From assembly GCA_038087875.1 (NCBI GenBank), contig CM075994.1, positions 1,986,001 to 2,050,000 on the forward strand: 64,000 bases of DNA. The letters run 5' to 3'. A model generated the notes under the pieces. It searched no databases and had not been told where the DNA came from. It worked only from the letters and a program-made list of their open reading frames with translations. Made by a program: the position numbers and the translations under genes. Shown here piece by piece: positions 7,866-32,374 of the stretch (the stretch's first letter is position 1; every line of letters starts with the position of its first letter). The DNA comes from Malacoraja senta. Its lineage: Eukaryota.

Positions 7866-7985
7866 TAAAATGAGAGAGAACAAGAAAACTTCTGAGCTTA
7901 TTAAAACAGCAAATCTTTTGTTTAATTCATTTGAACCATATTATATGTGGGACTATATAGCTCGTTGGTTTGAAGAATGTTGTAG
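7866..7985 (+). CDS. DOP1A: DOP1A exon (KMRENKKTSELIKTANLLFNSFEPYYMWDYIARWFEECC)
   Basis: tttcAG / GTaagt; phase 2-2, continuous with previous exon; near-identical to recalled DOP1A. Confidence 0.95.
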
Positions 7986-8438
7986 GTAAGTCATATGTTT
8001 TTATTGACGATAGTATAGTCATCATTAAATAACTATTGCAGTTTTTCCAGAGCCGTACTGTCTATTTCAGGGTTTCAGAACAACTTTAGTGGAATGTTTG
8101 CTAGATTTTGGTCTAGCCTGTCCTAAATGATTACTTAAATAAAATCAAAGGGCATGACGAATGTAGATTTTTTAATTAAAATGCTTGCCGGCACTTTTCG
8201 TCCACAAAAAAGGAAACTGTCAATAATAGGCAAAATGAGCATTGAGAATTGGGATGCAGAATATAATTTGGAGATTGAATTTAGAATTGACCCAGCATAG
8301 AACAATCTTGCTCATGTGAAAAAAGCACGGAAATGAAAGAATCTTTCTATTAGTATCCACTTTAATTGCGTATTTATGCCAGGATACATTAGGAAGATCA
8401 AGTCTGCATTAATATTGACAAATAATACTAAGCTTGTA

Positions 8439-8742
8439 GGGGTGGCACAACAGTAGAGTATCTGCCTTACAGCACCAGAGACCAGGGTTCAATCCTGACT
8501 ACAGGTGCAGTCTAAGCGGAGTTTGTATGTTCTCCATGTGACCGCATGGTTTTCGTCCAGGTGTTCTGGTTTCCGCCCACACACCAAAGACCTACAGGTA
8601 TGTAGGTTAATTGGCTTTGGTAAAAATTTGTAAATTGTCCCCAGTGTGTAGGGTAGTGCTAGCGTACGGGGTAATTGCTGGTCGGCGTGGACGCGGTGTA
8701 CCGAAGGGTCTATTTCTGTGCTGTATCTCTAAAGTCTAAAGT
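8439..8742 (+). mobile_element. V-SINE inserted 19 nt upstream of a DOP1A exon
   Basis: Same SINE structure; CTTGTA duplicated at 8433-8438 and 8743-8748. Confidence 0.8.
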
Positions 8743-8761
8743 CTTGTACTTCTCTCGCTAG

Positions 8762-8873
8762 GAGAACACTGAATGCAAGATTGCAGGCTTCGTCTCGTGG
8801 CAAGGAAATGTCAGAGTACTCTCTGGGTGAATTCTGTCTCTTGGTGGACTTCCTCTTGGACATAGTATCATTG
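8762..8873 (+). CDS. DOP1A: DOP1A exon (RTLNARLQ...FCLLVDFLLDIVSL)
   Basis: cgctAG / GTaagg; phase 2 to 0; conserved FCLLVDFLLDIVSL. Confidence 0.93.
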
Positions 8874-11569
8874 GTAAGGATCTCACCGAATCAAGTTCTG
8901 TCATTATAAGCAGCAGAATTAAAAACTACTGGAGATTACAAACACAAATGTACAGTTCAGGTCAATGTCTTGACGTAGTGGCTACTGATTAGCATTTGCT
9001 TTGTGTATTCTACCTTTAAGCTAGCATTAACAATTTAATAACTGTTCAAGTTACATTTTATTCAACACGATAGGAGAGGGATATGGACTAAATGTGGGCA
9101 AATGGAACTAGGTAATGGAACATCTTGGTCGGCATGGATGAGTTGGGCTGAAGGGCCTGTTTCCATGCTGTATGACTATAAGACAATTTTTTTTTAGATG
9201 TTGGATTTTGGCAGGAGTATAGGGTTGAGAGAGAGAAATAGATGAGCCATGATGAAATAGTGGAGCAGACTTGATGGGCCAAATGGACTAATTTTGCTCC
9301 TATGCCTTAAGGTCTTAGTTTCTTCGATAAGTAAATTGGCCTGGGATTTCAATAGCAACACCCTGCTATTGTTGATGTTTGCAACTTGTGCAGTGCCCTG
9401 ACCCTTTAACCGAATGCCCATGGTATACACCTGCTAGGCTTTATGCTGAGAACTATAGGAACCTGCAACACGTCAGTAGGTAATACCAGAAAAAAGACAC
9501 GGAGTGCTGGAGTAACTCAGCATCGTTATGTAACATCTCTGGAGAACTCTGGATGACTGTCTGATGAAGGGTCCCGACATAAAACGTCACCTGTCTACGT
9601 TCTCCAGAGATGCTGCCAGACCCGCTGACCTTGTTTGTAAACCAGCATCTGCAGTTCCTTATGTCTACATTCTCTTTTGACGTACCTTATTGAGTTATTC
9701 ATATAAAAACGTGCTGTACTTGGCACGTGGCAAAATATAGTGTTTTTATGGGAAAGAACAGCAAAGTGGAAGTTAAGTCAAGCTGCATGTAGTCTTACTC
9801 CATTTACACAGCATGAAGAGAGCCCTTGAATTAGATTGCTTTTGATTTTGAAGTGCTGTCAACAAATCGCATGTTATGCAAAATACAAAGTGCTGGAGCA
9901 ACTTGGCAGCTCTGGCAGAAATGGAAAGATGCTATTTCGGGTTTGGACCCTTCTTCAGGTTGATTGTAATAGAGGGAGAAAGCTGGAAGAGAGAGGTGGG
10001 AGGCGGGATAAAACCTGGCAAATGATAGATGGCTACAGGTATAGGGGAGGTTTGCTTGGGCTGATTGGTGGAGGAAGTGACAAAAGGGTGTAAGGCAAGG
10101 AGGAGGGGTGAAATGTAAAGCCAGAGGGAGGGGTATAGGTGGAAGGAAACAGAGGGGGTGGGGGGCATGAGAGAGGGGGGGGATAAAAGGGAAATGGGAA
10201 AATTCCGGAATGGGAGATGAGTGTATGAAGGAGGGAACAGGAGCAGGATGGGGGGATGGGCGATAATGGGAGAAATAGGCATGCACAAGGGTGGGGAAGG
10301 CACAGAAAAGAGAGAAGAAGGGTATTATAGGTCCACCACCAATTAATCCAGACAAAATCCACGCCCTCCCCTCCCCCCAGGAAGACCCAACAAAAATGTG
10401 GCACCTGGGCTGGCTGAGGCATGCAATCACGACCTCATTGGGTCTTCTGCACCGATCGGCAGGTCGAATTTTCTGGCGACCGGGGCTCTGGAATTCCAGC
10501 CCAGTGGGGCTGGTGGATCCGTTCCCATAGCCGGCATCCGCTGTTGACGTTTCGGGCCGGTATCTCGGTCCCCCAAGGCGACCGCTGTTGGTCCAGCAAA
10601 ACGGACAATCCAGAACCTTTCAAGGGTGCCAGACCTGTACTTGAAATTGGAGTATTTAGTGTTCCTAACTTAGTGGGCATGTTGTGTTGTGCCTCAGAAT
10701 GGCACACAGCAGTGGTCGTTTGTACATTGCAATCTGTATTGAAGGCTATACTAATTTTTGCAGGCTATACTAATTTTTTTATATTTGTCTGAAAATAAAT
10801 GATTTTTGAATATGTCAAAGCTTCTTTGGAGATCTCCAATAAACCTTTATTAGTATGTCGTAAAGGTATCAAATTTTATAATCAAAATACTTTTTATTCC
10901 ATGGAATTTCTTTTCTTCCCAAACCCATATTGCCCATTTCTATCTCCTTTCCAAAAATAAAGATTTCTCTGGCAAGGAGTCATTGTCTCCTCGTGACAAC
11001 CCCTTCACAAACCAAACATAATAAACAAACCAAAAAAAGTTCAATAAATAAAAAAACAATATAGTGCAAAAACAAAACAAAACAAAGCCCATGTTCCCAA
11101 GGCAGTTTGGAGTTTAGTTGAAGTTTGTAGTGTTCAATAGCTTGATGGTCATTGGGAAGAAGCTCATTCTTGAGCCTGGACATTACAGGTTACAGTCATT
11201 CTTGAAAGAGCAGCAATTCTTCCTCTGTCAATCCAGATGTCACACATGACATAAATGAAGCCACTTTGCACAGACTATGTGTTACAATTAATGTTTTCCC
11301 TTGTATCTGCTAGGGTGTCCATAGGTAGCACTTCATATAACTACATTAAACAGTAATGCCTTTTCCATACCATTAACCTCTTCTCAAGGGTCAGGCGTAA
11401 TTGAAATAAAATGGAGGCTTGGATTTTACTAACTGACTACAATAAATTCTGAGCCCACACATGTGGATTTGTCAGGAGTTTCTGAGTGCACTTGTCAGAT
11501 TAATTTGCACCAGTTAATATAAGTCTGTGCTTCTTTCATGAGCTATGTAATGGATATTGTAGTAAGGAA

Positions 11570-12110
11570 TAGGCCGTAAGGTGAGGCTACATTTAGAGTA
11601 TTGTGTTCAGTTGTGGGCACCATGTCATAGGAAGGATGTTGTCAAGCTGGAAAGGGTGCAGAGAAGATTTATGAGGATGTTGCCAGGACTCGAGGGCCTG
11701 AGCTGTAGGGGAGGTTAAGCAGGCTGGGACTCTATTCCATGGAGCTCAGGAGGATGAGGGGTGATCTTATAGAGGTGTACAAAATCATGAGAGGAATAGA
11801 TCAGGTAAACACCCAGAGTCTCGGAGTAGGGGAATCAAGAACCAGAGGACATAGGTTTAAGGTGAGGCAGGAAAGATTTAATAGAAACCTGAGGGATAAC
11901 TTTTTCACACATATGGTGGTGGGTGTATGGAATGAGTTGCCGGGGGAGGTAGATGAGACAGGTACTATCACAACTTTTAAGAAACACTTAGACATGTGGA
12001 TAGGATAGGTTTAGAGCGATATGGGCCAAACAGGAGCAGGTGGGACTAGTGTCGATGTGACATGTTGGTCAGTGTGGGCAAGTTGGGCTGTTTCCACGCT
12101 GTATGACTAT
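11570..12110 (+). mobile_element. Older CR1 3' fragment
   Basis: ORF 11739..12008 RRMRGDLIEVYKIMRG...TRGHRFKV; tail ending tttccacgctgtatgact. Confidence 0.8.
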
Positions 12111-13164
12111 GAATAGTTTGACTGGCAGATTGATACTTGATTGATCCGCAGACCTGTGAGTCCTTTGTTGCGGCATTACATTGCATGTTTAGTTCCAGGG
12201 AGGCAACCTACAAACCTCATTTCAAACTTCGAGCATTGACTTTTTATCGGCAGCCTAATTTAGCAAGAAACGGCAATGCTTTCAACTCCAGTGAGTATCT
12301 CACAGTCTGCAGTCCCTGAGCATTTTACATCCATTGGAGTGTACTCCCAATTGTAATATCGGAAATGCACCAGCCAGCTCCCACAAATGGCACGGTAATG
12401 GGTCAAAAACAGTGTTATATTCATTAGCTGCTCAATAACCACTAAATGCTTTACACATGGAAGCTCGGAGCCTGTACTCCTATTGATGCTGTCCCTGCAA
12501 ACCAACAACATTGAGTATTTTAGATACATTTACACAGCAATGTGATTTTGTAATTTTACCATTGCGATTCAAGAGTCAGATCTAGTTTTTAAAACCCAAT
12601 GGCAAATACAGTAATTGACATGATTGCATTTATGGAGAAAAATGTTTGTTTACCTTTCAAAGATAAGTATACTAATTTTCTTTCCCCCCCTAATATGTAT
12701 AGTTCAACCATTGCATTCTAAGTTCGCAAGCCAACTTGGGACTTCTGTTTTGTATTATTAAACCCAAGTTCCACCAAGTTATCAGACGAAGGGTCCTGAC
12801 TTGAATCGCCATCTCTCTATGTTCTCCAAAGATGCTGCCTGACCCGACGAGTTACTCCAGCACCTTGTGTCTTTCAATCATGTTAATCCCCATTCCAGTC
12901 ATCTTTTGAAAATACAAGGCTGTTCTCTTACAAATATCTGCACAGTGGAATTGTCATGACTGATATGGCTACTGTGTTCTCTCTATCTGCTCTTGTGAAG
13001 GCACCATCTGCCTGCTGGGATTCCACACAGACCATTGCCCTGTTCTATCAGGGACAATTTCTAATTTCTCAGTCAGCCCTCTTAAATGACCAATGATCAA
13101 AATTGTTGGAGGATTCTGTCTCTTCCTAATTGGGAGTTGTGGCGGATATAAGAAACCGGGAAAA

Positions 13165-13452
13165 CACCGGTGCAGTTGCTTCCTTACAGTGCCAGAGACC
13201 TGGGTTCCATACTGACTCCGGGTGCTGTCTGTATGGAGTTTGTACCATCTTCCCGTGACCAGCGTGGGTTTTCTTTGGGTGCTCTGGTTTCCTCCCACAC
13301 TCCAAAGATGTACAGGTTTGGAGGCTAATTGGTAAATTTGTAATTTGTCCCTAGTGTTAGTGTAGGATGTTGTTAGTGTGTGGTGATCGCTGATCGGAGT
13401 GGACTCGGTGGACCGAAGTGCCTGATTCCGCGCTGTATTTCTAAACTAAACT
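13165..13452 (+). mobile_element. V-SINE
   Basis: V-domain and ctaaactaaa tail. Confidence 0.75.
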
Positions 13453-13800
13453 ATATCAAGCTTGAGTGTGATTTTATGAATTACATTTGTTAAGTCTTCT
13501 GTTTTTAAGGATCTCTCTTATAGGATATGTTGCTCATATTTTAATCATCTTGTTCTCATCTTCATTTGCAATGAATAAGTACTGAATTATCTATTTAAAA
13601 TTGAACGTAGTTATATGTAGGCATTCGATTCAATTCAACTGAAAACAGGGCAAACTATTGAGACTGAGAGGGAGAGAGGAAAAGAGAAAATGTATGAACC
13701 GCAAGTGTTCGTCAAGAATGCTGCAGTAATTTCTTGGTGTCATCGTTAGTGTGACGATTATGCTTTTTTTATAATTGTCTGCTTTCTTTTTTTTTTAAAG

Positions 13801-13830
13801 CCTACTCGAAGTATGAGAGTACTGTGTCAG
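13801..13830 (+). CDS. DOP1A: DOP1A 30-nt microexon (PTRSMRVLCQ)
   Basis: Long T tract + aaAG acceptor, CAG|GTATGG donor, symmetric phase 0; peptide matches the segment recalled between DIVSL and ETYIEIQ in human DOP1A. Confidence 0.9.
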
Positions 13831-15003
13831 GTATGGGACTCACACCCTTGTCATCTAATCTTTCTTCATCCTCATCAGCTCGACAGATGTACCATTGCAT
13901 GCAGTTCTGAAGTGGGTTTAAGGACCCTTGTTATGTAAAAAATGTTTATGCTAAATTTTCTGGCTCTGTTTTTTAATAAATTGCACTTGTGTTGTGTTTG
14001 AAAAGACACAAAGTGCCGGGATAACTCAACGGGTCTGGCAGCATCTCTGCCTGACCCGCTGAGTTACTCCAGCACTTTGTGTCTTTTTTTGTAAACCAGC
14101 ATCTTTAGTTTCTTGTTTCTAGATTTCTGTTCTGATGTTTGTTTAGCAAAGCACCCCAAAGCAACTAACAGAAACGTTACTGAATCAAAGCATCTTTTGG
14201 CAATGAGTTGATGAAAGAGATATCAAGTAGGTAGTAAAAAGAAAAGAGGAGATAGAAGTAGAAAAGTTTACAGAGGGGGTTTCAGGGCCTACAGACAGTG
14301 GAAATGAAAACACTGCCTCCATTGCGGAGCTATTAACATTGAAGGGGCATATGACACTGGAAATGGAGAGATAACAAATTTTCTATTTAAAATTGAACAT
14401 AGTTATATGTCGGCCTTCGATTGAAAGATGTTATACATTGAACATAGAATGGTGCAGCACGAGAAAAGGCCCTTCAGCCCACAATGTCCGACCTAACACA
14501 ATGCCAGTTAAACCAATCTACTCTGCCTGCACGTGATCCATATCCCTCCATACCCTGCATATCCAAAAGCCTCTTAAATGCCACGATCGTGTCTGCCTCC
14601 ACCACTACCCTTGGCAGGGTGTTTCAGGCCCCCACCACTTTGTAAATAAAACGTGGTCTCACGGATCTCCTTTAAACTTTGCCCATCTCACCTTAAAGCT
14701 ATCCCCCGTAGTCTTTGACATTTCCACCCTGGGAAAAGGGTTTTGGCTGTCTACCCTGTCTATGCCTCTCACAATTCCTCTCCCACACTCCAGAGAAAAC
14801 AATCCAAGTTTGTTTGACCTCTCCTTATACTGTAGCTAATACCCTGTAATCCAGGCAGTGAACCTGGTATATACAGATAGTATTGGACTGGGTGCCAGTG
14901 TCAGCATGCAAGCACTGGCATGAAGTGTGAGTTTAGGAAAATGGATTGAACGCACTGTTTTGTGTCTGGTGAAACATGGGTCAGCCAGGAGGATTTTCAA
15001 ATA

Positions 15004-18000
15004 GTCAAGTCAAGTCAAGTGAGTTTATTGTCATGTGTCCCTGATAGGACAATGACATTCTTGTTTAGCTTCAGCACACAGAACATAGTAGGCATTTACT
15101 ACAAAACAGATCAGTGTGTCCATATACCATAATATAAATATATACACACACGAATAAATAGAAACATAGAAAAATAGGTACAGGAGTAGGCCCTTCGAGC
15201 CTGCACCGCCATTCAATATGATCATGGCTGATCATCCAACTCAGTATCCCGTACCTGCCTTCTCTCCATACCCCCTGATCCCTTTAGCCACAAGGGCCAC
15301 ATCTAACTCCCTCTTAAATATAGCCAATGAACTGGCCTCAACTACCTTCTGTGGCAGAGAGTTCCAGAGATTCACCACTCTCTGTGTGAAAAAAGTTTTT
15401 CTCGTCTCGGTCCTAAAGGATTTCCCCTCTATCCTTGAGCTGTGACCCCTTGTCCTGGACTTCCCCAACATCGGGAACAATCTTCCTGCATCTGACCTGT
15501 CCAACCCCTTGAGAATTTTGTAAGTTTCTATAAGATCCCCCCTCAATCTCCTAAATTCTAGCGAGTACAAGCCGAGTCTATCCAGTCTTTCTTCATATGA
15601 AAGTCCTGACATCCCAGGAATAAGTCTGGTGAACCTTCTTTGCACTCCCTCTATGGCAATAATGTCCTTCCTCAGATTTGGAGACCAAAACTCTACGCAA
15701 TACTCCAGGTGTGGTCTCACCAAGACCCTGTGCAACTGCAGTAGAACCTCCCTGCTCCTATACACAAATCCTTTTGCTATGAATGCTAACATACCATTCG
15801 CTTTCTTCACTGCCTGCTGCACCTGCATGCCTACTTTCAATGACTGGTGTACCATGACACCCAGGTCTCATTGCATCTCCCCTTTTCCTAATCGGCCACC
15901 ATTTAGATAATAGTCTGCTTTCCTGTTTTTGCCACCAAAGTGAATAACCTCACATTTATCCACATTATACTGCATCTGCCATGCATTTGCCCACTCACCC
16001 AGCCTATCCAAGTCACCTTGCAGCCTCCTAGCATCCTCCTCACAGCTAACACTGCCCCCCAGCTTAGTGTCATCCGCAAACATGGAGACGTTGCATTCAA
16101 TTCCCTCGTCCAAATCATTAATATATATTGTAAATAGCTGGGGTCCCAGCACTGAGCCTTGCGGTACCCCACTAGTCACTGCCTGCCATTCTGAACAGGA
16201 CCCGTTTACTCCTGCTCTTTGCTTCCTGTTTGCTAGCCAGTTCTCTATCCACATCAATACTGAACCCCCAATACCGTGTGCTTTAAGTTTGTATACTAAT
16301 CTCTTATGTAGGACCTTGTCGAAAGCCTTCTGAAAGTCCAGATATAACACATCCACTGGTTCTCCCCTATCCACTCTACTAGTTACATCCTCGAAAAATT
16401 CTATGAGATTCGTCAGACATGATTTACCTTTCGTAAATCCATGCTGACTTTATCCAATGATTTCACCACTTTTCAAATGTGCTGCTATCCCATCTTTAAT
16501 AACTGACTCTAGCAGTTTCCCCACTACCGATGTTAGACTAACTGGTCTGTCATTCCCCGTTTTCTCTCTCCCTCCCTTTTTAGCTACCCTCCAATCCTCA
16601 GGAACTACTCCAGAATCTAAAGAGTTTTGAAAAATTATCACTAATGCATCCACTATTTCTGGAGCTACTTCCTTAAGTACTCTGGGATGCAGCCTATCTG
16701 GCCCTGGGGATTTATCGGCCTTTAATCCTTTCAATTTACCTAACACCACTTCCCGACTCACCTGGATTTCACTCAGTTCCTCAATCGCGGTCCCCTGCTA
16801 TTTCCGGCAGATTATTTATGTCTTCCTTAGTGAAGACGGAACCAAAGTACTTATTCAATTGGTCCGCCATGTCCTTGTTCCCCATGGTCAATTCACCTGT
16901 TTCTGACTGCAAGGGACCTACATTTGTTTTAACTAATCTCTTTCTCTTCACGTATCTATAAAAACTTCTGCAGTCAGTTTTAATGTTCCCTGCCAGTTTT
17001 CTTTCATAATCTATTTTCCCTTTCCTAATTAAGCCCTTTGTCCTCCTCTGCTGGTCTCTGAATTTCTTCCATTCCTCTGGTCGGCTGCTTTTTCTGGCTA
17101 ATTTGTACGCTTCATCTTTTGCTTTGATGCTATCCCTGATTTCCCTTGTTATCCACGGATGCACTACCTTCCCTGATTTATTCTTTTGCCAAACTGGGAT
17201 GAACAATTTTTGTAGTTCATCCATGCAGTCTTTAAATGCCTTGAATTGCATATCCACCGTCAACCCTTTAAGAATTAATCGCCAGTCAATCTTGGCCAAT
17301 TCATGTCTCATACCCTCAAAGTTACCTTTCTTTAAGTTCAGAACCATTGTTTCTGAATTAACCATGTCACTCTCCATCCTAATGAAGAACTCAACCATAT
17401 TATGGTCACTCTTGCCCAAGGGGCCACGTACAACAAGACTGTTAACTAACCCTTCCTCATTACTCAATACCCAGTCTAGAATAGCCTGCTCTCTCGTTGG
17501 TTCCTCTACATGTTGGTTTAGAAAACTATCCCGCATACATTCCAAGAAATCCTCTTCCTCAGCACCCCTGCCAATTTGATTCACCCAATCTATATGTAGA
17601 TTGAAGTCACCCATTATAACTGTTTTACCTTTGTTGCACGCATTTCTAAATTCCTGTTTGATGCCATCCCCAACTCTACTACTACTGTTAGATGGCCTGT
17701 ACACAACACCCACTAGTGTTTTCTGCCCCTTAGTGTTTCGCAGCTCTACCCATATCGATTCCACATCCTCCAAGCTAATGTCCTTCCTTTCCATTGCGTT
17801 AATAGACTGATAAAGTGCAGATAACAGATAATGGGTTATTAATAATCAGAGTTTTGTCCGAGCCAGGTTTAATAGCCTGATGCTGTGGGGAAGTAGCTAT
17901 TCCTGAACCTGGTTGTTGCAGTCTTCAGGCTCCTGTACCTTCTACCTGAAGGTAGCAAGGAGATGAGTGTGTGGCCAGGATAGTGTGGGTCTTTGATGAT

Positions 18001-18212
18001 ACTGCCAGCCTTTATGAGGCAGCGACTGCGATAAACCCCCTCGATGGAAGGAAGGTCAGAGCTGATGATGGACTGGGCAGTGTTTACTACTTTTTGTAGT
18101 CTTTTCCTCTCCAGGGCGCTCAAGTTGCCGAACCAAGCCACGATGCAACCGGTCAGCATGCTCCCTACTGTGCACCTGTAGAAGTTAGAGAGAGTCCTCC
18201 TTGACAAACCGT
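15004..18212 (-). mobile_element. Rex1/Babar-like LINE 3' part, interrupted by the CR1 at 15159-17783
   Basis: ORF 17869..18207 FYRCTVGSMLTGCIVAWFGN...LLPSGRRYRS...RFRNSYFP; (CTTGA)n tail at 15004-15020. Confidence 0.75.
15159..17783 (-). mobile_element. CR1-clade LINE, 5'-truncated, partial APE endonuclease + RT, disrupted
   Basis: ORF pieces with MGDFN, SDHNMVEF, YLDFQKAFDKV, GVPQGSVLGP, FADDTKL and LVRPHLEYC; (TTCTATGT)-like 3' tail at about 15159-15175; split by stops/frameshifts. Confidence 0.93.
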
Positions 18213-18424
18213 CTAGGAGTTACAAAGGCACAGAGGAGAATTTCAGCAGAAATTCCTGCTGATACAGGGTTTGAGTTGGGTGCTGCCATGGAGCTGTAGA
18301 CAGTCGTGGAGATGAGGCAGGTCTGTGGTCAGAACCTTATGTCTAGCCCAAACACTACGTGAAGAGCGCAGATGGTCCAGCTTAATTTTGGAGGCAGAGA
18401 AAAACAGGTTAGGGGTGACACACA

Positions 18425-18460
18425 ATGTCTGACGAAGGGTCCCGACCCGAAACGTCATCC
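18425..18460 (+). ncRNA. Minimal type I hammerhead-ribozyme-like core in a Penelope pLTR
   Basis: CTGACGA (18429-35), extra A, stem II GGGT-cccg-ACCC, GAAA (18449-52), palindromic ACGT stem III, GTC cleavage triplet ending 18456; stem I weak. Confidence 0.55.
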
Positions 18461-20206
18461 ATCCTTTTTCTCCAGAGATGCTGTCTGACCCACTGAGTTA
18501 CTTGAGCACTTTGTATCTATCTTTAGCATAAACCAGCATCTGCAGTTCTTTGTTTCTACATCCTTCCTACATCTGTATCCACTCAGATATCAACCTGGAG
18601 TTTCTCTGCAATCTCCCTAAAGACCACCCTCTCATAGAAGCACCTATATACGTGGAACCTGATCAAATTATGTCAGCAAGGGAATTACACAGAGGAAAAT
18701 AAAAGAGAGCTAAGTGGCGGCAGAGGAGCGCAGTGGGCAAGAACATAAGGAATAGGAGTAGAATTAGGTCATTCTGCCCAAGTCTACTCCGCCATTCAAT
18801 CATGGCTGTGTCTATCTCTCCCTCCTAAACCCATTCTCCTGCCTTCTTCCCATAACCTCTGACACCTGTACTTATCAAGAATCTATCTATCGCTGCCTTA
18901 AAAATATCCACTACAGCCTGATGTGGCAAAGAATTCTACAGATTCACCACCCTCTGACTAAAGAAATTTCTCCTCGGGGTAGAGTCGCTGCTTCACAGCG
19001 CCAGAGACCCGGGTTCGATCCCGACCTTGGGTGCTGTTTGTGTGTGGTATTTGCACGTTCTCCATGTGACTGTGAGGGTTTCCTCCGGGTGCTCCAGTTT
19101 CCTCCCACACTCCAAAGACGTGCAGGTTTGCAAGTTAATTGGCTTCTGTAAATTTTCCCCATGTGTGTAAGGCGTGGATGGGAAGGTGGGATAACATAGA
19201 ACTAGTGTGAACAGATGATCGATGACTGGCATGGACTTGATGAGCTGAAGGGCCTTTTTCCATGTTGTACCATTCATTGAATGAGTGAACAAAGCTAAGG
19301 ATATATCTCAGGCGTAGTTCAGAGAATTATTATTATTGAAACTGGTAAAAGAAAGTTGATATGAAAATAGTTTGGCAGTTCAGTCAGAATAGTGGAGGAG
19401 AGGTGCTGAGGAAGGGGTGTGTGGACCATGTGTGGAATGCTGTGGACATGTTGCGAAGAAACTGGATAGTTTACTGTGCTCTCTATGATGCAAAATGGTA
19501 CTTATTACTTTGATAAGAGTCATTTGTTGCTGTTTATTGCAGGTGGCCTGTTGCAGATTAATACCAATTCAGTTCTTGATTAAAATATATTTTTGCTGGA
19601 GTTTAATAACATGACCTCCATCTAAAATTTTGAAATGAAGGCTGAATTTTCAGAAACTTGTGCAAATCTGCTGGATAACATTAAATGAATATTTTTTTGA
19701 GCATATGACTATTGTTGCTGATGCCACAAGAAAAGTCACACCGATTTTTATATAGTTTCAGAAATTATCTCAGCCATTTAGAGAGCTTCATATCTTCTAC
19801 ATAAGCCTATTGATTATAATACTTATTACTGATATAGCTATATCTGAACATTGCCATTCATGCGTTAACATTTCTGAAGAGTGTGGTGTAACATATAAGT
19901 TTTATTTTCTGTATTATGGTAATTTGCTCACAACTTTAATCAAAATCGTGCAAGGTACAATAGAATCACACCATGACCAATCACTCCCAAATAAAACTGT
20001 TTTGGAATTAATTTGCAAGTTCATTTTAACTCATTCAATTCTTAATGCATTGGGGGGGGGGGGGGGGTTTCAAGAGCTTGCACAGCGGTTAGTGGCTTAG
20101 TAGCTCTAACACTCACTGAGATTTGTTGGACAGCTGTCTAGTTAACAGATAGTGAGTGAATCAATCACCTCAGTGGAGAAACAAACCATTTTGACCTCGG
20201 TCTTTA

Positions 20207-20511
20207 GGGCGCATGGTGGCACAGCTGTAGAGTTGCTGCCTTACAGCGCCAGAGACCCAGGTTCGATCCTGACTATGGGTGCTGTCTGTACGTAGTTTGT
20301 ATGGTCTCCCCGTTACCCTGTGCCCTTTTCCGCACATTCAAAAGACGTGCAAGTTTGAAGGTTATTTGGCATTGGTAAAAATGTATAAATAGTCCCTTGT
20401 GTGTAGGATAGTGCTAGTGAACAGGGTGATCGGTGGTCAGCACGGACTCGGTGGGCTTAGGCGGCGGTTTCCACGCTGTATCTCTCAACTAAACTAAACT
20501 AAACCAAACTA
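20207..20511 (+). mobile_element. V-SINE
   Basis: A/B boxes (ggttcgatcc), V-domain, (CTAAA)n tail. Confidence 0.8.
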
Positions 20512-21498
20512 TGGCATTGGTACAAATGACCACCACACTATCATAATATCATAACATGGATAGATGACGTTTTGGGTCAGGATCCTTCTTCAGATTCAAC
20601 CTGACCAGGTCCCAAACTGAAATGTCACCCATCCATGTATTCCAGGGATGCTGGTTGACCTGCTGAGTTACTCCAGCACTTTGTGATGTTCTTTGTAAAA
20701 CAGCATCTGCAGTTCCTTGTTTCTATTATAATGGAGGCTAACTCCTGGGAGAACTTTCTAGTTTAGTTTTTTTATTATCACCGAGGTACAGTGAAAAGCT
20801 TCATTGTTGCGTGCTATCCAGTCAGTGGAAAGACTGCATATGATTACAACCAAGTAGTCCATAATGTACGGACACAGGATAAAAGGAATTCCATTTAGTG
20901 CAAGATAATGTCAAGTAAAGTCTGATTAAAGATAGTCCGAGGGTCTCCAATGAGGTAGACAGTAGGCCAGGACCATTCTCTAGTTGATGATGGGATGTCT
21001 GTAGATTTCCCTAAAAGTTGCACCTTTCCCTGGAAATTTATCACCAGTCCTTCTTCATCACTAGGTCTAAATCCTGGAAGTTCCTGCCCAACAGCATTAA
21101 GGGGTTATTCTCAGCAGAACTGTAGTGATTGATACTGTGGTGAACTGCAGAGAGGCAATAAATGGTGGCTTTGTCCACGATGCCTGTATCTGAACAATGA
21201 AATAACCAAAAGAAATGAAGACAGGGTGCTGGAGTAGCTCAGCAGGTCGGGCAGCACCTCAGGAGAACATGGATAGGTGACATTTCGGGTCTTGGCCGTT
21301 CTTTAAACTGATGGTGGGGGTTGCGGGTAGGACAAAGCCTGGCAGGTAATAGGATGACACAGTGAGGGGGGTTATTTGATAGGAAGATGGTTGGACAGAG
21401 GTTAAAAGACAGAATGTGTGAGACAAAAGGATCGAACCCAGGGGGGTTGTTGGGGGGTGGTGGGGGGGGGGGGGGGAGAAATAGGTGTGTCCAGGTCT

Positions 21499-21804
21499 GG
21501 CACAGGTGGCGCAGCGGTAGAGATGCTGACCTGCAGCGCCAGAGATCCGGGTTCGATCCTGACTACGGGTGCTGTCTACGGAGTTTTTACGTTCTCCCTT
21601 GTGAACTGCATGGGATTTCTCTGGGGGTTCCGGTTTCCTCCCACATTTCAAAGATGTACAGGTTTGTAGGCAAATTGGCTTGGTAAAATTGTAAATTGTC
21701 CCTAGTGTGTGTACAATAGTGTTAATGTACGGGGATCGCTGGTCGGCGTGGACTCGGTGGGCCGCAGGGCCTGTTTCCATGCTGTATCTCAAAACTAAAT
21801 TAAA
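21499..21804 (+). mobile_element. V-SINE nested in a minus-strand Penelope remnant (about 21220-21920)
   Basis: Full SINE; PLE pLTR and GIY-YIG-tail sequence on both sides. Confidence 0.75.
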
Positions 21805-22387
21805 AGATGCGTTAAATGGTCGAAGAAGGGAGAGGGGGAGTGTTAAGTAGTTACCTAAAATTGGAGAATTCAGTGTTCATACTGTTTTGTTGTAAGCTAC
21901 CCGTGGAATATGAGGTGTGTCAAAATAAACGTTGGGGGCTCTAATCCCTTCTGCAATTGGCTGTTCATGAAGCTAAATATTTGGTTTTAATTTTACTTGG
22001 CTAATTATATTCAGCTAACAATGGTGCATCTGGAAGAACTGCTGCCTCACAGTGTCAGAGAGCAAGAATCGATCCTGACCACGGGTGACTGTTGTCTGTG
22101 TGGAGTTTGTACGTTCTCCCTGTGACCACGTGGGTTTTCTCTGAGTGCTCCGGTTTTCTCCCACATTCCAAAGACGTGTGGGTTTGTTGGTTAATCGGCG
22201 TCTGTGAATTGGCCCTAGCGTGTAGGGAGTGGATGACTGTGCACGCCATACGCAAGAAGAAGAAGAAGGTCTTTTAATCAGTTTAACCAATTAAAGCTTG
22301 AGGTCTTGATATTGTTTTATTTCAATGGTTCAGTGGTGCTTAATTGTCACATGTACCTAGGTTCAGCGAAATTTCATTTTTGTATAA

Positions 22388-22805
22388 GAAGGAACTGCAG
22401 ATGCTGGAAAGGTAGATAAAAATGCTGGAGAAGCTCAGCGGGTGAGGCAGCATCTATGGAGCGAAGGAATAGGCGGCGTTACGGGTCGAAACCCTTCTTC
22501 AGACTGATGTGGGGGTGGAGGGGGGGGGCGGGAAGAAGAAAGGAAGAGGCGAAGGCAGTGCGCTGAGGGAGAGCTGGGAAGGGGAGGGGAAAGAGAGAGA
22601 AAGCAAGGACAACCTGAAATTGGAGAAGTCAATGTTCATACCGCTGGGGTGTAGACTACCCAAGCAAAATATGAGATGCTGTTCCTCCAATTTACGGTGG
22701 GACTCACTTTGGCCATGGAGGAGGCCCAGGACAGAAAGGTTGGATTCGGAATGGGAGGGGGAGTTGAAGTGCTGAGCCACCGGGAGATCAGGTTGGTTAT
22801 TGCTG
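22388..22805 (-). mobile_element. Penelope-like element 3' end (GIY-YIG C-terminus + pseudo-LTR with hammerhead-like core)
   Basis: ORF 22499..22780 AQHFNSPSH...VLGLL...RKLEEQHLIFCLGSLHPSGMN resembles PLE GIY-YIG C-termini; CTGAAGA-AGGGTTTCGACCC-GTAAC downstream on the same strand. Confidence 0.75.
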
Positions 22806-23358
22806 TTCAGTCAAAATCCTACTATACGTAAGTACAATCATTCTGAAGTACAAGAGTGTAGGATCAGTAGGTTACACTGAGATAGTACACAAGAGTCGCC
22901 AGATTCCTGGCGCCATTTTGATTGCTTTTGGACACACATCTAGGCGAACCCGTTTTGTTTCATTGTGCTTGTTGTCATTCAGTTCAATTGCATGAATGGT
23001 TTATGAGCAATGCAAGGACTGTATAGTACCTCTTCTGTTTACAAACTTGATTTGCAACTATTTGGTCATTATAATTTGCCTCGTGTTAATAGTACACTAA
23101 CCCTGTTTGGTTAATGACCTAGACCAGTGACCTGTTGAGAAATTCTCACCTATCCTGTTTGCTTGTCTGGGATATGAGGCAGAGCATTTGTTTCCCTTCA
23201 GTACTCCAGTCTTGAAAGAATGTTAAAGTCATGTGACTCTAAAAGCTGGACAACTCTGAAGGTGTAAATATCTCTTGAATTCTTGTGCAAGCAAAGTAAA
23301 TTGATATTGAAAATCCATTTTGCAGATTATTGAGAACAATACAGCTTTATTGAGTTCA

Positions 23359-23618
23359 AGAAGGAACTGCAGATGCTGGAATATCGAAGGTAGACAAAAA
23401 TGCTGGAGAAACTCAGCAGGTGCGGCAGCATCTATGGAGCGAAGGAAATAGGCAACGTTTCAGGCCGAAACCCTTCTTCAGACTGAAGAAGGGTTTCGGC
23501 CCTAAACGTTGCCTATTTCCTTATCAATTTTCAATATCAATTTACAGGAAACGTTGCCTATTTCCTTCGCTCCATAGATGCTGCCGCACCCGCTGAGTTT
23601 CTCCACATTTTTGTCTAC
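23359..23618. mobile_element. Fold-back element made of two inverted Penelope pLTR copies
   Basis: Palindrome centre CCCTTCTTCAG-A-CTGAAGAAGGG at 23482; 17-bp flanking duplication CAGCTTTATT(G/T)AGTTCA at 23342-23358 and 23619-23635. Confidence 0.8.
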
Positions 23619-23740
23619 CAGCTTTATTTAGTTCAGTTGAATAATTAATGGCTATGTTTGCCATTTATATTTCATGTTGGAAAGGCAAATTGCAATTCTT
23701 ATTTTAAATAACATACTGAAGGCATCTGTTTCGTCCTTAG

Positions 23741-23971
23741 GAGACCTACATTGAGATCCAAACGGAACATTTGCCCCAGCTGTTGGTGCGAATGGTGTCT
23801 GCCCTGTCCAGCCACCTGCAGGCTTTGTGCCTCTCTGAGCTCACCGACTGTCTCAAGCTGTGCTCCAAAATACTGAGCAAAGTACAACCGCCTTTGCTGT
23901 CACCCGGGGCAGAGAACAGACTACATTACCCAGGACACTCCAACTTTGCCCAACAGACGGAAGAGAAAAGG
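23741..23971 (+). CDS. DOP1A: DOP1A exon (ETYIEIQTEHLPQLL...TEEKR)
   Basis: ccttAG / GTaaat; open frame, 231 nt, phase 0-0. Confidence 0.94.
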
Positions 23972-24688
23972 GTAAATTTTATCGACGGATTAGCTACTGT
24001 TTTTATTGAGGGTTTTTTTGTCTGCAAGTTGAAACTTAGTTATCTTTAATTAGACTTTTCTGTCTACCCCATATGACCGTTGCTGTTTCCATATAACCCC
24101 CCCACCTCCCTCGCCTCTCCTGGGCTCGCACCTATTTCTCCCCTCCATCTCCTCTTCCATCTGCATTCCTTACTCTAGCTTCACAATTCGCAATTCTTTG
24201 ATCATTTTGTCGCACACCTTTTCACCTCTGTTTCAACCATCTTCCTAGCAAATAACCCTCCTCACTGTGTCAGCCTATTACCTGCTAGGCTTCATTTATT
24301 TTGATTATTTCATTGTTCAGACACAGGTGTCGTGGAGAAAGCCAACATTTATCGCCTAGCTGCAATAGTCCTCCATCTGCCTTCCCAAATCACCTCCGTC
24401 CCTCTGGTGAGAATGACCCCTCAATCCTGTTGGGCAGGGACTTCCATGATTTAGACCCAGCGATTAAGAAGGACTGGTGATAAATTTCGAAGTCAGGGGA
24501 ATGTGCAGCTTTTGGGGAAATCCACACTCATTCCAACACCAACTACAGAGCGATCCTGACCTACCCCATCTACCTCATTGGAGACCCTCGGACTATCTTT
24601 AATTGGACTTTTCTAGACTCTATCTTGGACTAAACGTTATTCCCTTTATCCTGTATGTGCACACTGTGGACGGCTCGATTGTAATCAT

Positions 24689-27030
24689 AGATACATAGAA
24701 AATAGGTGCAGGTGTAGGCCATTCGGCCCTTCGAGCCTGCACCGCCATTCAATATGATCATGGCTGATCATCCAACTCAGTATCCCGTACCTGCCTTCTC
24801 TCCATACCCCCTGATACCTTTAGCCACAAGGGTCACATCTAACTCCCTCTTAAATATAGCCAATGAACTGGCCTCAACTACCCTCTGTGGCAGAGAGTTC
24901 CAGAGATTCACCACTCTCTGTGTGAAAAGGTTTTTCCTCATCTCGGTCTTAAAGGATTTCCCCCTTATCCTTAAGCTGTGACCCCTTGTCCTGGACTTCC
25001 CCAACATCGGGAACAATCTTCCTGCATCTAGCCTGTCCAACCCCATAAGAATTTTGTACGTTTCTATAAGATCCTCTCTCAATCTCCTAAATTCTAGCGA
25101 GTATAAGCCAAGTCTATCCAGTCTTTCTTCATATGAAAGTCCTGACATCCCAGGAATCAGTCTGGTGAACCTTCTTTGCACTCCCTCTATGGCTATAATG
25201 TCCTTCCTCAGATTTGGAGACCAAAACTGTACGCAATACTCCAGGTGTGGTCTCACCAAGACCCTGTACAACTGCAGTAGAACCTCCCTGCTCCTATACT
25301 CAAATCCTCTTGCTATGAATGCTAACATACCATTCGCTTTCTTCACTGCCTGCTGCACCTGCATGCCTACTTTCAATGACTGGTGTACCATGACACCCAG
25401 GTCTCGCTGCATCTCCCCATTTCCTAATCGGCCACCATTTAGATAATAGTCTGCCTTCCCGTTTTTGCCACCAAAGTGGATAACCTCACATTTATCCACA
25501 TTATACTGCATCTGCCAAACATTTGCCCACTCACCCAGCCTATCCAAGTCACCTTGCAGTCTCCTAGCATCCTCCTCACAGCTAACACTGCCCCCCAGCT
25601 TAGTGTCATCCGCAAACTTGGAGATGTTGCTTTCAATTCCCTCGTCCAGATCATTAATATAAATTGTAAATAGCTGGGGTCCCAGCACTGAGCCTTGCGG
25701 TACCCCACTAGTCACTGCCTGCCATTGTGAAAAGGACCCGTTTACTCCTACTCTTTGCTTCCTGTTTGCCAGCCAGTTCTCTATCCACATCAATACTGAA
25801 CCTCCAATACCGTGTGATTTAAGTTTGTATCCTAATCTCTTATGTGGTACCTTGTCGAAAGCCTTCTGAAAGTCCAGATACAACACATCCGCTGGTTCTC
25901 CCCTATCTACTCTACTAGTTACATCCTCGAAAAATTCTATAAGATTCGTCAGACACGATTTACCTTTCGTAAATCCATGCTGACTTTTCCAATGATTTCA
26001 CCACTTTCCAAATGTGCTGCTATCCCATCTTTAATAACTGACTAGCAGTTTCCCCACTACCGATGTTAGACTAACTGGTCTGTAATTCCCCGTTTTCTCT
26101 CTCCCTCCCTTCTTAAAAAGTGGGGTTACGTTTGCTACCCTCCAATCCTCGGGAACTACTCCAGAATCTAAAGAGTTTTGAAAAATTATCACTAATGCAT
26201 CCAATATTTCTGGAGCTACTTCCTTAAGTACTCTGGGATGCAGCCTATCTGACCCTGGTGATTTATCGGCCTTTAATCCATTCAATTTACCCAACACCAC
26301 TTCCCGACTAACCTGGATTTCACTCAGTTCCTCCATCTCCTTTGACCCGCGGCCCCCTGCTATTTCCGGCAGATTATTTATGTCTTCCTTAGTGAAGACG
26401 GAACCAAAGTAGTTATTCAATTGGTCCGCCATATCCTTGTTCCCCATGATCAATTCACCTGTTTCTGACTGCAAGGGACCTACATTTGTTTTAACTAATC
26501 TCTTTCTCTTCACATATCTATAAAAACTTTTGCATTCAGTTTTTATGTTCCCTGCCAGTTTCCTTTCATAATCTATTTTCCCTTTCCTAATTAAGCCCTT
26601 TGTCCTCCTCTGCTGGACTCTGAATTTCTCCCAGTCCTCTGGTATGCTGCTTTTTCTGGCTAATTTGTACACATCATCTTTTGCTTTGATACTATCCCTG
26701 ATTTCCCTTGTTATCCACGGATGCACTACCTTCCCTGATTTATTCTTTTGCCAAACTGGGATGAACAATTTTTGTAGTTCATCCATGCAGTCTTTAAATG
26801 CCTTCCATTGCATATCCACCGTCAACCCTTTTAGAACGAATTGCCAGTCAATCTTGGCCAATTCACGTCTCATACCCTCAAAGTTACCTTTCTTTAAGTT
26901 CAGAACCGTTGTTTCTGAATTAACAATGTCACTCTCCATCCTAATGAAGAACTCAACCATATTATGGTCACTCTTGCCCAAGGGGGCACGCACAACAAGA
27001 CTGCTAACTAACCCTTCCTCATTACTCAAT
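24689..27030 (-). mobile_element. CR1-clade LINE, 5'-truncated, same family as 15159-17783
   Basis: ORFs 24777..25886 and 26031..27029; same tail; AATCAT duplicated at 24683-24688 and 27051-27056. Confidence 0.93.
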
Positions 27031-27294
27031 ATTGTATTGCCTCATTACTCAATCATGTATTGCCTTTCTGCTGACTGGTTAGCTCGCAACAAAAACCTTT
27101 TCACTGTACCTCGGTGCACATGACAATAAACTAAACTAAACTAGTCTAAACTAAACTTAATTCATTTTGTTTTATATTTGTGATACCAATACCCTCATAA
27201 TACAGTGTTGTCAGATTGTGAATTAAGAACAGAATTAAACGGTCAGTCATCTCTCTATTTATTTTCGAATATCTGTTTTATTAAAAGTAAACCA

Positions 27295-27845
27295 GCATCG
27301 GGCCCTTCGGCTCATCTTGTCTGTGCAGAACACGATGCCAAGTTAACTAATCTCCTCTGCTTGCCTGTGATCTAACTCCCTCCATTTTTTTCATATTCAT
27401 GTGCCCATCAAAATGCCTCTTAAATGGCACTTTCGTATCTGTGTGTTTCAAACACCCACCACACTCTGTGTGTAAAAATAAAATAAAAAAATGGCCCCAC
27501 AAATCTCCTAAAAATATTGCCCCTCGCATCTTAAAACTATGATTCCTCTTTGACATTTCCAACCTCGGGAAAAGGGTTGTGTCTTTCTATACTATCTACT
27601 ATAATATCTCATTATTTTATATACCTCTGTCAGGTCGCCCTCAGCCTCCACGCTCCAGAGAAAACAATCCGTTTGTTCAACCTCCATTTATAATTTATAT
27701 TCTCTAATCCAGGCAGCAATCTGGTAAATCTCTTTTGCACGCTTTCTAAAGCCTCCATATCCTCCCTGTAATAGTGCCACCAGAACTGCACACAATACGC
27801 CAAATACGGCCGAATCAAAGTCCTATAAAGCTGCAACATGACTGG
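27295..27845 (-). mobile_element. Older CR1 3' fragment
   Basis: ORF 27630..27839 LQLYRTLIRPYLAYCVQFWW...VQKRFTRLLPG. Confidence 0.75.
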
Positions 27846-28004
27846 CTGTTATACTAAAAAATATAGGAAGATGAATGGGGCGTGTGACTTTAGAACAGCA
27901 TGGCCCAGTGGGAAAAATCATCTGTAAGATAGAAACAAAATTAAAATAATGCATATGCTGTAAACCTGAAATGTGAAGTGAGAACACCAGCATTCGATCA
28001 ACTA

Positions 28005-28585
28005 TGGGCTGCTGGATCTCCCGGCTGCCAACCATTTCAACTCTCCTTCCCATTCCCTTACTGATCTTTGCTCCTTAATTGCCAGAGTGAGAGCACACAC
28101 AAACTGGAGGAAATGTACCTCGTATTCTGCTTCGGGTTGCTTGCAAACTAACAGTACAAAGAGTGAATTCTCTAATTTTAGGTAACTAACCACCCCCCCC
28201 CACCCCCTTATATTTATATATATTTTCAACCCCCCTCTCTTCCCTGTGCCCCACGTGGATTCACACCTATTTCTCCCCTTCCAACTATATTCCTACCTCT
28301 GGCTTCACAATTCACACCTCTTCTGTCCATATATCACACCTTTTGTCTTTTCACCTCTGGCCTTTGTCAAGCCCTCTGCCTATCAACCCCCCACCCCCTC
28401 CTCCATCTCTGTATCTACCTATCACTCCCCAGGTTTGTCCTGATCCTCCTATCTTGTAGCATTCCCCCCCCCCCAACCACCACAATCAATCTAACGAAGG
28501 GTCCCGACCCAAAACTTCACCTATCCATGTTCTCCAGAAACGCCGCCTGACCCGCTGAGTTACTCCAGCACTTTGTGTCTTTTTG
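28005..28585 (+). mobile_element. Penelope-like element 3' end, degenerate
   Basis: Same GIY-YIG tail (caaccatttcaactctccttcccattccc...ctggaggaa), pyrimidine-rich UTR and pLTR ending ctgagttactccagcactttgtgtc. Confidence 0.65.
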
Positions 28586-29130
28586 CATCATTCTCTGGTG
28601 TACAAATGTCGTTTAAGTGAATAGAACACAAACACAGTTTTTCACTGTACCTCGGCACACATGACAACTTACAAATAATAAACTCTACCTTACAGTACCA
28701 GCGACCCAGCTTCGATCCTGACTACGGGTGTTTTCTGCGTGGAGTTTGCATGTTCTCCCTCTGACCCCGTGGGTTTCCTCCAGTTGCTCTGGTTTCCCCC
28801 CACATCCTAAAGACATGCAGATTTGCAGGTTAATTGGTCACTGTAAAATTGCCCACAATAGGAATTGGAAATGTAGGAAGTGGATGAGAGATATATATGA
28901 ACATGTGTTTGATGGTTGGTGGCGACTCGATGGCCCGAATGGCTTCTTTCCAAGCTGAATCTCAAACTAAACTAAACGGCATCCCTCCCATTAATCTGTA
29001 ACCTTATTTGTGTGGTTGGCGTATCTCATCCTGTTCGCACTTCACTCCAAAAATGAGGTGTCAAAATATGAAATTTTCACCGGCTCTTGGTTTTCCTGAT
29101 AGTTTTCATGCCTTTCATTTCTTTGTCCAG

Positions 29131-29752: not shown

Positions 29753-30099
29753 GTAAGTTTTCCTGCATGCATCTCAGGTTAGACAATGCTTTTATGCTGC
29801 TTATTATGTGATCCTCACTGTTAGGTACCGCACTTTATGCGTGTTTGACCAACGCGTTTTTGAAATAACACGCTTGTTCATTTAATGCCACAGTTTGATT
29901 TACGTTCTTGTTCTTTTTGGAATAACGCGCTCAAATTAACGGCTAACAGCATAGTCACAGCCCAGACCATCACGCACGCAGCAAAAGTGGGAGATGAGAG
30001 GGGCAAGTGGGATGAATCATTTTTTGCTATTTGTCTGCTGTTGATTCAATGTTTGTGACAGCACAATGTTTTGACTGTTGTCTGTTCTCCTTTGTGTAG

Positions 30100-32359: not shown

Positions 32360-32374
32360 GTATGGGGTTGCCTC

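What the first reader, a model, noticed from the sequence alone, without database searches (positions are those of the whole stretch)
18425..18460. DOP1A introns are seeded with hammerhead-ribozyme cores from Penelope-like termini
Seen: about 20 copies of a short repeat share CTGA(A/C/T)GA-A-GGGT-N4-(A/G)CCC-GAAA-CGT(C/T). Examples are + 18429-18456 (complete core), + 36570-36596, + 55876-55902 (C3 lost), - near 23455-23481, - 22478-22503 and - 9934-9958, with degenerate copies at 6729, 9561, 28491, 43026 and 61389. Where more of the element survives, the motif lies just 3' of a GIY-YIG-like ORF tail. Established: Penelope-like elements and retrozymes carry minimal type I hammerheads whose palindromic stem III (ACGU) works through dimers, and an extra base after A9 is tolerated in some natural hammerheads. 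Inference: sense-strand copies sit in the DOP1A pre-mRNA and could self-cleave or trans-complement. Most are mutated and stem I is only 2-3 bp, so activity is uncertain.
Basis: partly seen in the sequence, partly recalled or inferred. Interest (0 to 1): 0.7.

Follow-up and report, generated by a model that had tools for sequence, protein, structure and literature searches.

The report
Penelope retrotransposon stumps with minimal hammerheads
The short ribozyme-shaped repeats in this cartilaginous fish's DOP1A introns are real, but they are mostly decayed end-pieces of a very abundant jumping gene of a known kind, no denser here than in other genes and unlikely to cut the host transcript; their sharply fixed front ends likely mark where the element's own RNA starts.

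Summary
Observation confirmed: 17 window matches at up to 4 mismatches, 0 in 20 shuffles, and 55,339 exact matches genome-wide. The motif is the known minimal type I hammerhead in the terminal repeat (pLTR) of an RT + GIY-YIG Penelope-like element, Neptune-type by its linker motif; young tandem copies of about 3.9 kb exist.

DOP1A is not special: 7th of 20 gene regions by density, with one complete core (18429). That copy is predicted to fold into an inactive hairpin. In 1.26 Mb of gene-body DNA of inferred orientation, copies are 236 sense to 241 antisense, and intact cores 13/113 versus 17/110. Catalytic bases decay like flanks (5.0% vs 5.9%). Host pre-mRNA cleavage has no support, though weak selection is not excluded.

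One by-product: 5' ends pile up at an initiator-like TCAGT just before the core (103 of 150 at risk), not at the cut site (6 of 249). 3' ends fall at two sites about 35 nt apart. Most stumps are therefore likely run-off cDNAs from uncut element RNA. The scan noted this before in other shark genomes (unreviewed AI notes). No RNA of this species was available.

The parts
18427..18557 (+). Solo pLTR stump of the Penelope-like element (hammerhead + downstream leader + tail), sense in a DOP1A intron; no ORF remnant upstream
18429..18456 (+). Minimal hammerhead core: CUGANGA box 18429-35 (N7 = C), extra A 18436, stem II 18437-40/18445-48, GAAA 18449-52, palindromic CG 18453-54, UC 18455-56; predicted cut after 18456; stem I = 18427-28 with 18457-58 (U-A, G.U)
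   Evidence: sequence; only complete core in the window; predicted to be sequestered in a hairpin
22369..22810 (-). Longer stump: GIY-YIG C-terminal tail (22616-22801), 3' UTR, mutated hammerhead (22475-22502), leader and tail
23345..23624 (.). Head-to-head inverted stump pair (cores 23454-23481 on -, 23483-23510 on +) plus a third fragment at 23548-23624, about 120 nt before a DOP1A exon
27982..28590 (+). Old stump with degenerate GIY-YIG tail and broken core at 28491-28518
36562..36702 (+). Tandem pair: first copy ends at U16.1 (N17 = G), second copy at 36601 is broken
42641..43130 (+). Stump with GIY-YIG tail (42641-42871) and broken core at 43027-43054
54290..54530 (.). Inverted pair; the - core (54388-54415) keeps catalytic bases but has G.U at 10.1-11.1
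55876..55979 (+). Stump with C3 lost, flanked by a 10-nt candidate target-site duplication
9478..9974 (.). Inverted pair at 9478-9666 and a separate - copy (core 9931-9958); all cores broken
2217..62340 (+). Host gene DOP1A (part): about 20 exon hits in order on the + strand

Best explanation
The motifs are terminal-repeat stumps of an abundant Penelope-like retrotransposon carrying the known minimal hammerhead, scattered through introns in both orientations and decaying at the rate of their flanks, and they are likely inert passengers in DOP1A. Shown: the parent element is a unit of about 3.9 kb with an RT + GIY-YIG frame, and the hammerhead lies about 120 nt after the stop codon and 135 nt before the next ATG. 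Stump 3' ends fall at two sites about 65 and 100 nt past the cut site, and 5' ends pile up 0-4 nt before the core. Inferred: transcription starts at the TCAGT just before the core, RT starts internally at one of the two downstream sites and runs off the 5' end of an uncut RNA, and the 100-140-nt cDNA is inserted with a target duplication of about 10-15 bp or joined head-to-head to a second cDNA. Inferred from the literature: the ribozyme works, if at all, as a protein-assisted dimer on the element's own tandem RNA.
For: 55,339 exact cores, control 0. Tandem young elements with cores 3,888 and 3,946 nt apart and repeats 99% alike (L061, L056), with RVT_1 and GIY-YIG hits. No orientation bias: 236 vs 241 (477 of 677 fragments kept after dropping one satellite-rich region and tandem arrays); intact 13/113 vs 17/110, p=0.44; exact pattern 14 vs 20. 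Catalytic non-CpG mismatch 98/1971 vs flank 495/8401; core CpGs 211/874. 5'-end rate 11.4%/nt over six positions before the core vs 0.8%/nt at the cut site (314 copies). 3,361 and 3,857 genome copies whose match begins at the A or the G of TCAGT. 3' ends near core positions 93-95 and 126-132. Predicted energies: active dimer of the 18429 copy -2.5 vs -22.6 kcal/mol for two monomers. Literature: low in vitro activity even as dimers (PMC4209133); protein-assisted cleavage, dispensable for insertion, two internal RT starts giving the tail (PMC11167929).
Against: The orientation test has low power for intact cores (sense share 95% CI 0.25-0.59, n=34); the point estimate leans antisense. About two thirds of the sample is dynein genes of probably restricted expression, and orientation is inferred from exon hits without checking nested genes. 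Catalytic A's decay slightly more slowly than flank A's (44/1092 vs 66/1080), which could be alignment ascertainment. The start-site reading has no RNA support, and a cap-derived G was not resolved (35/100 vs 28% expected, p=0.15). Nearest-neighbour energies ignore tertiary contacts and proteins.
Confidence: 0.8

Rival explanations
1. Sense-strand intronic copies cleave host pre-mRNA at a biologically meaningful rate, in cis or by pairing two copies through the ACGU palindrome.
For: 18429 has every catalytic base. By sequence, halves that could complement exist on the + strand (enzyme half: 18429, 36570; substrate half: 9561, 23483, 23548, 43027, 55875). Intact cores lean antisense (14 vs 20, not significant). 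Intronic hammerheads have been domesticated in amniotes (PMC6155905, passages).
Against: Only 4+2 base pairs would hold partners kilobases apart. The 18429 copy's N7=C allows a 5-bp pairing that buries the core (61% of the ensemble for a 46-mer). There is no orientation bias, and decay is neutral. Published minimal hammerheads are inactive as monomers and weak as dimers (PMC4209133).
Confidence: 0.05
2. The 5' pile-up is not a transcription start but a strong RT stop or template switch caused by RNA structure or by the purine-to-pyrimidine transition at the hammerhead's 5' border in the 3' repeat copy.
For: Truncation also rises within the core (1.2-2.4%/nt vs 0.4-0.8 just downstream). The youngest family folds a stable hairpin over the core. 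No cap-G signal was resolved. Inverted junctions cluster at the same place.
Against: The peak is narrow and sits on an initiator-like TCAGT kept in the subfamilies seen. In 4 of 30 loci (L220, L225, L237, L239) a duplicate of about 10 nt of the element's own 5' end follows the target duplication, so synthesis stopped twice near the same place; a strong stop could also do this.
Confidence: 0.3
3. The stumps are an independent non-autonomous element (SINE- or retrozyme-like) that copies itself from short transcripts.
For: Uniform 100-140-nt length with target duplications; about 0.9-1.0 million fragments by extrapolation.
Against: Young stumps carry the same diagnostic bases as the full-length element's repeat. 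Tandem arrays built from this repeat lack the CUGA box (L127, L122), so they are not retrozyme units.
Confidence: 0.08
4. The conserved 28 nt are kept mainly as an internal core promoter (initiator plus downstream element) or protein-binding site, and the ribozyme in this lineage is vestigial.
For: Stem I is only 2 bp; the youngest family has U17 and a predicted competing hairpin (P about 0.94); no 5' ends pile up at the cut site; D. virilis Penelope has an internal promoter with a downstream element RGACGTGY (PMC2377424, passage), and an ACGT lies at +27 to +30 here.
Against: All five subfamily-level non-CpG differences in positions 1-30 fall in loop II, at U-A/U.G pairs or at H17 (C/U), and none at a catalytic base. 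This fits selection on a hammerhead but is only modest evidence. The two roles are not exclusive.
Confidence: 0.2

Closest known systems
Minimal hammerheads (min-HHR) in pLTRs of metazoan Penelope-like elements (Cervera and de la Pena 2014, PMC4209133; parts 1-2 of 4 read, supplements searched, one file not searchable)
   Same: Type I, no stem III beyond a palindromic pair, extra base between A9 and G10.1, G10.1-C11.1, located in pLTRs, mostly solo copies from truncated elements.
   Different: Stem I is 2 bp (as in their D. virilis variant) rather than 4-5 bp; stem II is 4 bp. There are 55,339 exact cores against about 4,000 (coelacanth) and 9,000 (Xenopus). No shark or skate term was found in the two supplements searched.
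Poseidon element of Anolis, PAc (Frangieh et al. 2024, PMC11167929; parts 1-2 of 4 read)
   Same: Hammerhead in the pLTR; two internal RT starts downstream giving a 30-40-bp tail; uncut RNA as the main template; no ends at the cut site.
   Different: Here the RT starts and the hammerhead lie in a 5' UTR upstream of the ATG; the linker has a CX4CxxC motif; a sharp 5'-end pile-up before the core was not described in the parts read.
Neptune-type EN+ PLEs (Craig et al. 2021, PMC8557442, passages; Arkhipova et al. 2013, PMC3846280, passages)
   Same: C-terminal GIY-YIG, CX2-5CxxC linker, partial tandems, inverted 5' copies, tail, target duplications.
   Different: Clade assigned by motif only, no tree; long Pro-rich N-terminal region (ORF about 1,200 codons).
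Domesticated intronic hammerheads of amniotes, such as RECK (PMC6155905, passages)
   Same: Type I hammerhead in an intron, retroelement origin.
   Different: Those are single, canonical and conserved across species; these are minimal, very numerous and decaying.
Non-LTR retrozymes (bioRxiv 10.64898/2026.07.22.740005; part 1 of 5 and passages)
   Same: PLE-derived, type I hammerhead, reported in one chondrichthyan.
   Different: Retrozymes are tandem units each with a complete hammerhead; the window's copies are solo or inverted.

Membership tests
min-HHR of metazoan PLEs | CUGANGA / GAAA / UH core | tested here: met
   family majority and young elements; 3 of 19 full-span window copies keep it
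min-HHR of metazoan PLEs | Extra nucleotide between A9 and G10.1; G10.1-C11.1 pair | tested here: met
   A in 216 of 220; G-C in 77 of 107 low-divergence copies, G.U (CpG decay) in 18
min-HHR of metazoan PLEs | Palindromic 15.2-16.2, no loop 3 | tested here: met
   CG in 67 of 107, most of the rest CpG-decay products
min-HHR of metazoan PLEs | Short helix I (4-5 bp typical, 2 bp in the published D. virilis variant) | tested here: met
   2 bp in dominant families, that is the variant range and not the typical one; 6 bp in 1 of 25 loci of a rare old type (L263)
min-HHR of metazoan PLEs | Located in pLTRs flanking an RT-EN frame | tested here: met
   L056, L061, L062
min-HHR of metazoan PLEs | Covariation in stems | tested here: inconclusive
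   Only U-A/U.G one-sided changes at subfamily level; the 5 two-sided cells in 16 hand-picked sequences are single copies
min-HHR of metazoan PLEs | Self-cleavage as dimer or with protein | not testable with these tools
   needs an in vitro assay; no raw RNA reads available
EN+ PLE, Neptune type | Single frame with RT then C-terminal GIY-YIG | tested here: met
   RVT_1 E=2e-6 and GIY-YIG E=7e-4, both under Pfam's cut-off; precomputed PF00078 on most homologues
EN+ PLE, Neptune type | CX2-5CxxC linker (absent in Penelope/Poseidon) and CCHH in EN | tested here: met
   CX4CxxC and C/C/H/H seen by inspection of the L061 translation; criterion from PMC8557442
EN+ PLE, Neptune type | Partial tandems, inverted 5' copies, 30-40-bp tail | tested here: met
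   207 of 477 fragments in inverted pairs; two 3' ends about 35 nt apart
EN+ PLE, Neptune type | RT phylogeny within Neptune rather than Nematis | not tested
   no labelled reference sequences in session
Non-LTR retrozyme | Tandem units each with a complete hammerhead | tested here: not met
   36570/36601 pair is broken; arrays in L122 and L127 lack the CUGA box
Domesticated intronic hammerhead | Canonical stems and slower decay than neighbouring repeat DNA | tested here: not met
   no stem III, 2-bp stem I; 5.0% vs 5.9%
Domesticated intronic hammerhead | Conserved at the orthologous site across species | not tested
   no relative genomes held for this window

The most novel reading that the evidence does not exclude
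The hammerhead sits at the very 5' end of the element's transcript and overlaps its core promoter. The roughly one million stumps are strong-stop-like cDNAs made by internal RT initiation and run-off at the transcription start, and full-length tandem copies arise when such a cDNA jumps to the RNA's 3' repeat, an LTR-like step in Penelope-like elements. The ribozyme would then be kept folded shut during reverse transcription.
Probability: 0.35. Interest if true: 0.55.

Novelty: new member of a known kind. Interest (0 to 1): 0.22.

Why it matters
For DOP1A it matters little: this is ordinary repeat content. The family still offers two things. First, about 55,000 intact cores, many intronic, give a large natural test of whether minimal hammerheads cut host transcripts; the sample here says not detectably. 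Second, the sharp ends of the stumps record steps of the unresolved Penelope-like replication cycle: uncut template, two RT starts and a probable transcription start at the ribozyme's 5' border. One CAGE or 5'-RACE experiment can test that.

Tried and rejected
Rfam scan: no hammerhead family among 67 hits. Pfam on the short ORF tails in the window: no hit; identity came from full-length copies instead. RNA evidence: no RNA holder listed for this species; all runs laid were contigs, which cannot show RNA ends. They show only that related organisms hold the same repeat, with loose ends at the same A/G positions. Cap-G test: 35/100 G before the A (p=0.15) and 51/100 G before the G (p=2e-5), both hand-counted from the first 100 listed matches and tested. 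Of the 15 G cases among 30 fetched loci, 13 are explained by target duplication, an inverted partner or re-copied element sequence, so the test is unresolved. Excess of 5' ends at the cut site: not found (6 of 249 at risk; p=0.24 against neighbouring positions). Other hammerhead families: a general descriptor over 1.61 Mb gave 110 hits, 108 of this family, 1 variant of it and 1 unrelated, against 0-1 in 3 shuffles; a relaxed genome pattern listed only this family in its first 100 of 3,542 matches. Automatic TSD search gave 87 candidates from 400 copies, many spurious; only clustered ends were used. Lunse et al. 2017 (PMC5785218) was not held; I saw only its title in a reference list and a review's summary. 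One search failed on a script error and was rerun. The literature search for a strong-stop or start-site model in PLEs found none; subscription papers and bioRxiv supplements were not searchable.

Full report
Observation. A profile finds 40 fragments at E<0.01, 22 on + and 18 on -. Of these, 19 span the core, 3 keep all catalytic bases, and only 18429 also keeps G10.1-C11.1. The named examples are present with small offsets; 36570 is followed by G at position 17 and by a second broken copy. The window lies in DOP1A on the + strand of a cartilaginous fish: best hits are 81% and 79% to chondrichthyan DOP1A, and exons are in order from 2217 to 62340. Rfam reports no hammerhead.

What it is. The exact pattern occurs 55,339 times in the 1.94-Gb genome, 27,882 forward and 27,457 reverse, control 0. 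The ORF tail at 22613-22810 (-) retrieved 82,339 candidates. An RT-region search led to open frames of up to 1,092 codons. In 16 fetched loci, L061 and L056 hold tandem units with cores 3,888 and 3,946 nt apart and repeats 99% alike. Their frames are split (an in-frame stop in L061, two overlapping frames in L056), and I saw no uninterrupted ATG-to-stop copy. The C-terminal frame has RVT_1 and GIY-YIG hits below Pfam's cut-offs and a CX4CxxC linker, which by PMC8557442 (passages) excludes Penelope/Poseidon and fits Neptune or Nematis; no tree was built. The hammerhead lies about 120 nt after the stop and 135 nt before the next ATG. This is the minimal hammerhead of Cervera and de la Pena (PMC4209133, parts 1-2 of 4 read): extra base after A9, G10.1-C11.1, palindromic 15.2-16.2, mostly solo copies, inactive as monomer and weak as dimer. 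Here stem I is 2 bp, as in their D. virilis variant.

Is DOP1A special? I fetched 1.26 Mb inside 20 gene regions whose orientation follows from exon hits (DOP1A, 11 myosin, 8 dynein). The profile found 677 fragments. DOP1A has 6.6 per 10 kb, 7th of 20, and 1 exact core in 84 kb against 2.4 expected. Extrapolated, the genome holds 0.9-1.0 million fragments.

Do sense copies matter? I dropped one satellite-rich region (135 fragments) and tandem arrays, leaving 477 fragments: 236 sense and 241 antisense. Among the 223 that span core and flank, intact cores are 13 of 113 sense and 17 of 110 antisense (p=0.44). Catalytic non-CpG bases differ from the majority in 98 of 1,971 cases and flank controls in 495 of 8,401, while the core's two CpGs differ in 211 of 874. 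The exact pattern gives 14 sense and 20 antisense (95% CI of sense share 0.25-0.59). So decay looks neutral and strong selection against sense copies is not seen. Weak selection is not excluded, the estimate leans antisense, and dynein genes make up about two thirds of the sample. Folding agrees: the 18429 copy has C at the free position 7, which lets the CUGA box pair with the cleavage strand (61% of the ensemble for a 46-mer). Its active double-hammerhead dimer scores -2.5 kcal/mol against -22.6 for two monomers; for the young family -6.5 against -14.4, with a competing hairpin at P about 0.94. These energies ignore tertiary contacts and proteins.

Covariation. Among 107 low-divergence copies, subfamily-level non-CpG differences in positions 1-30 occur at five places: two in loop II, two U-A/U.G exchanges and H17 C/U. 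None is catalytic and none is double compensatory. A 16-sequence hand-picked alignment gave 89.6% paired cells, but its two-sided changes are single copies. One of 25 loci of a rare old type has a 6-bp stem I. This is modest evidence that the parent element is selected to keep a hammerhead.

How the stumps arise. For 314 non-tandem copies anchored downstream, 5' ends are lost at 0.8% per nt at the cut site (6 of 249 at risk), 0.4-2.4% elsewhere in and after the core, and 11.4% per nt over six positions ending at C3 (103 of 150 at risk). Chance extension blurs this by 1-2 nt. Genome-wide, 3,361 copies begin their match at the A and 3,857 at the G of the TCAGT before the core, and contigs of this and related organisms show loose ends at the same two bases. 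3' ends cluster near core positions 93-95 and 126-132, with target duplications mostly of 8-15 bp. That matches the two internal RT starts and the 30-40-bp tail shown for the Anolis element, where uncut RNA is the main template and cleavage needs the protein (PMC11167929, parts 1-2 of 4 read). Every copy spanning the cut site must derive from an uncut template. TCAGT fits an initiator consensus (recalled), and D. virilis Penelope has an internal promoter with a downstream element (PMC2377424, passages). I therefore infer that RT runs off the transcript's 5' end, at about 0.55 against 0.3 for a structural stop. A cap-derived G was not resolved, and no RNA of this species was available.

Comparison and novelty. 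It is a member of the PLE minimal-hammerhead kind and of EN+ PLEs; activity is untested. It fails the tests for retrozyme and for domesticated intronic hammerhead. Searches found no paper on this family's hammerhead in cartilaginous fishes beyond a preprint's retrozyme survey that includes one chondrichthyan, and searches found no start-site run-off model; subscription papers were not searchable. Eight unreviewed notes from this scan describe the same thing in other shark genomes. Several share the start-site reading, which I had already listed at 10% before the look-up and raised after my own tests; two report footprints of cutting, which I did not find here. Verdict: real, correctly identified, ordinary for DOP1A; interest 0.22.

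Noticed in passing
window 35900-39090, N run 37174-37373: About 700 residues of DOP1A (1043-1750 of P0002) have no match in the window; the stretch holds a 200-N gap, so the large exon is probably lost in an assembly gap.
   Followed up: partly
window 59370-59523: A DOP1A exon changes frame within a G run; probably an assembly error, not checked against reads.
   Followed up: partly
window 2816-5572 (-): 918-codon open frame of an L1/Tx1-like LINE (RT region, label from recall), apparently young.
   Followed up: no
window 15170-17845, 24718-27123, 62689-63878 (-): Three CR1-like LINE copies 94-97% alike (label from recall).
   Followed up: no
window 49765-50699 (-): Fragments of a Tc1-like transposase (label from recall).
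   Followed up: no
window 8442-8748 and about 12-16 similar copies: A second abundant short repeat family, probably a tRNA-derived SINE (families D1-D5).
   Followed up: no
L122-L127, L093, L096: Satellite-like arrays of 33-34-bp and 66-bp units built from the hammerhead region but lacking the CUGA box; the same composite recurs at several places.
   Followed up: partly
L061:1910-2110: Young family has U at position 17 and a UUCG loop II with a competing hairpin; a short upstream ATG frame and a donor-like GT overlap the main ATG, so an intron is possible.
   Followed up: partly
L263, L179, L088, L251: Rare old hammerhead type reading CUGAUGC; L263 has a 6-bp stem I, and the others were not shown to.
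   Followed up: partly
window 51385-51753: 41-bp tandem repeat of about 9 units in a DOP1A intron.
   Followed up: no
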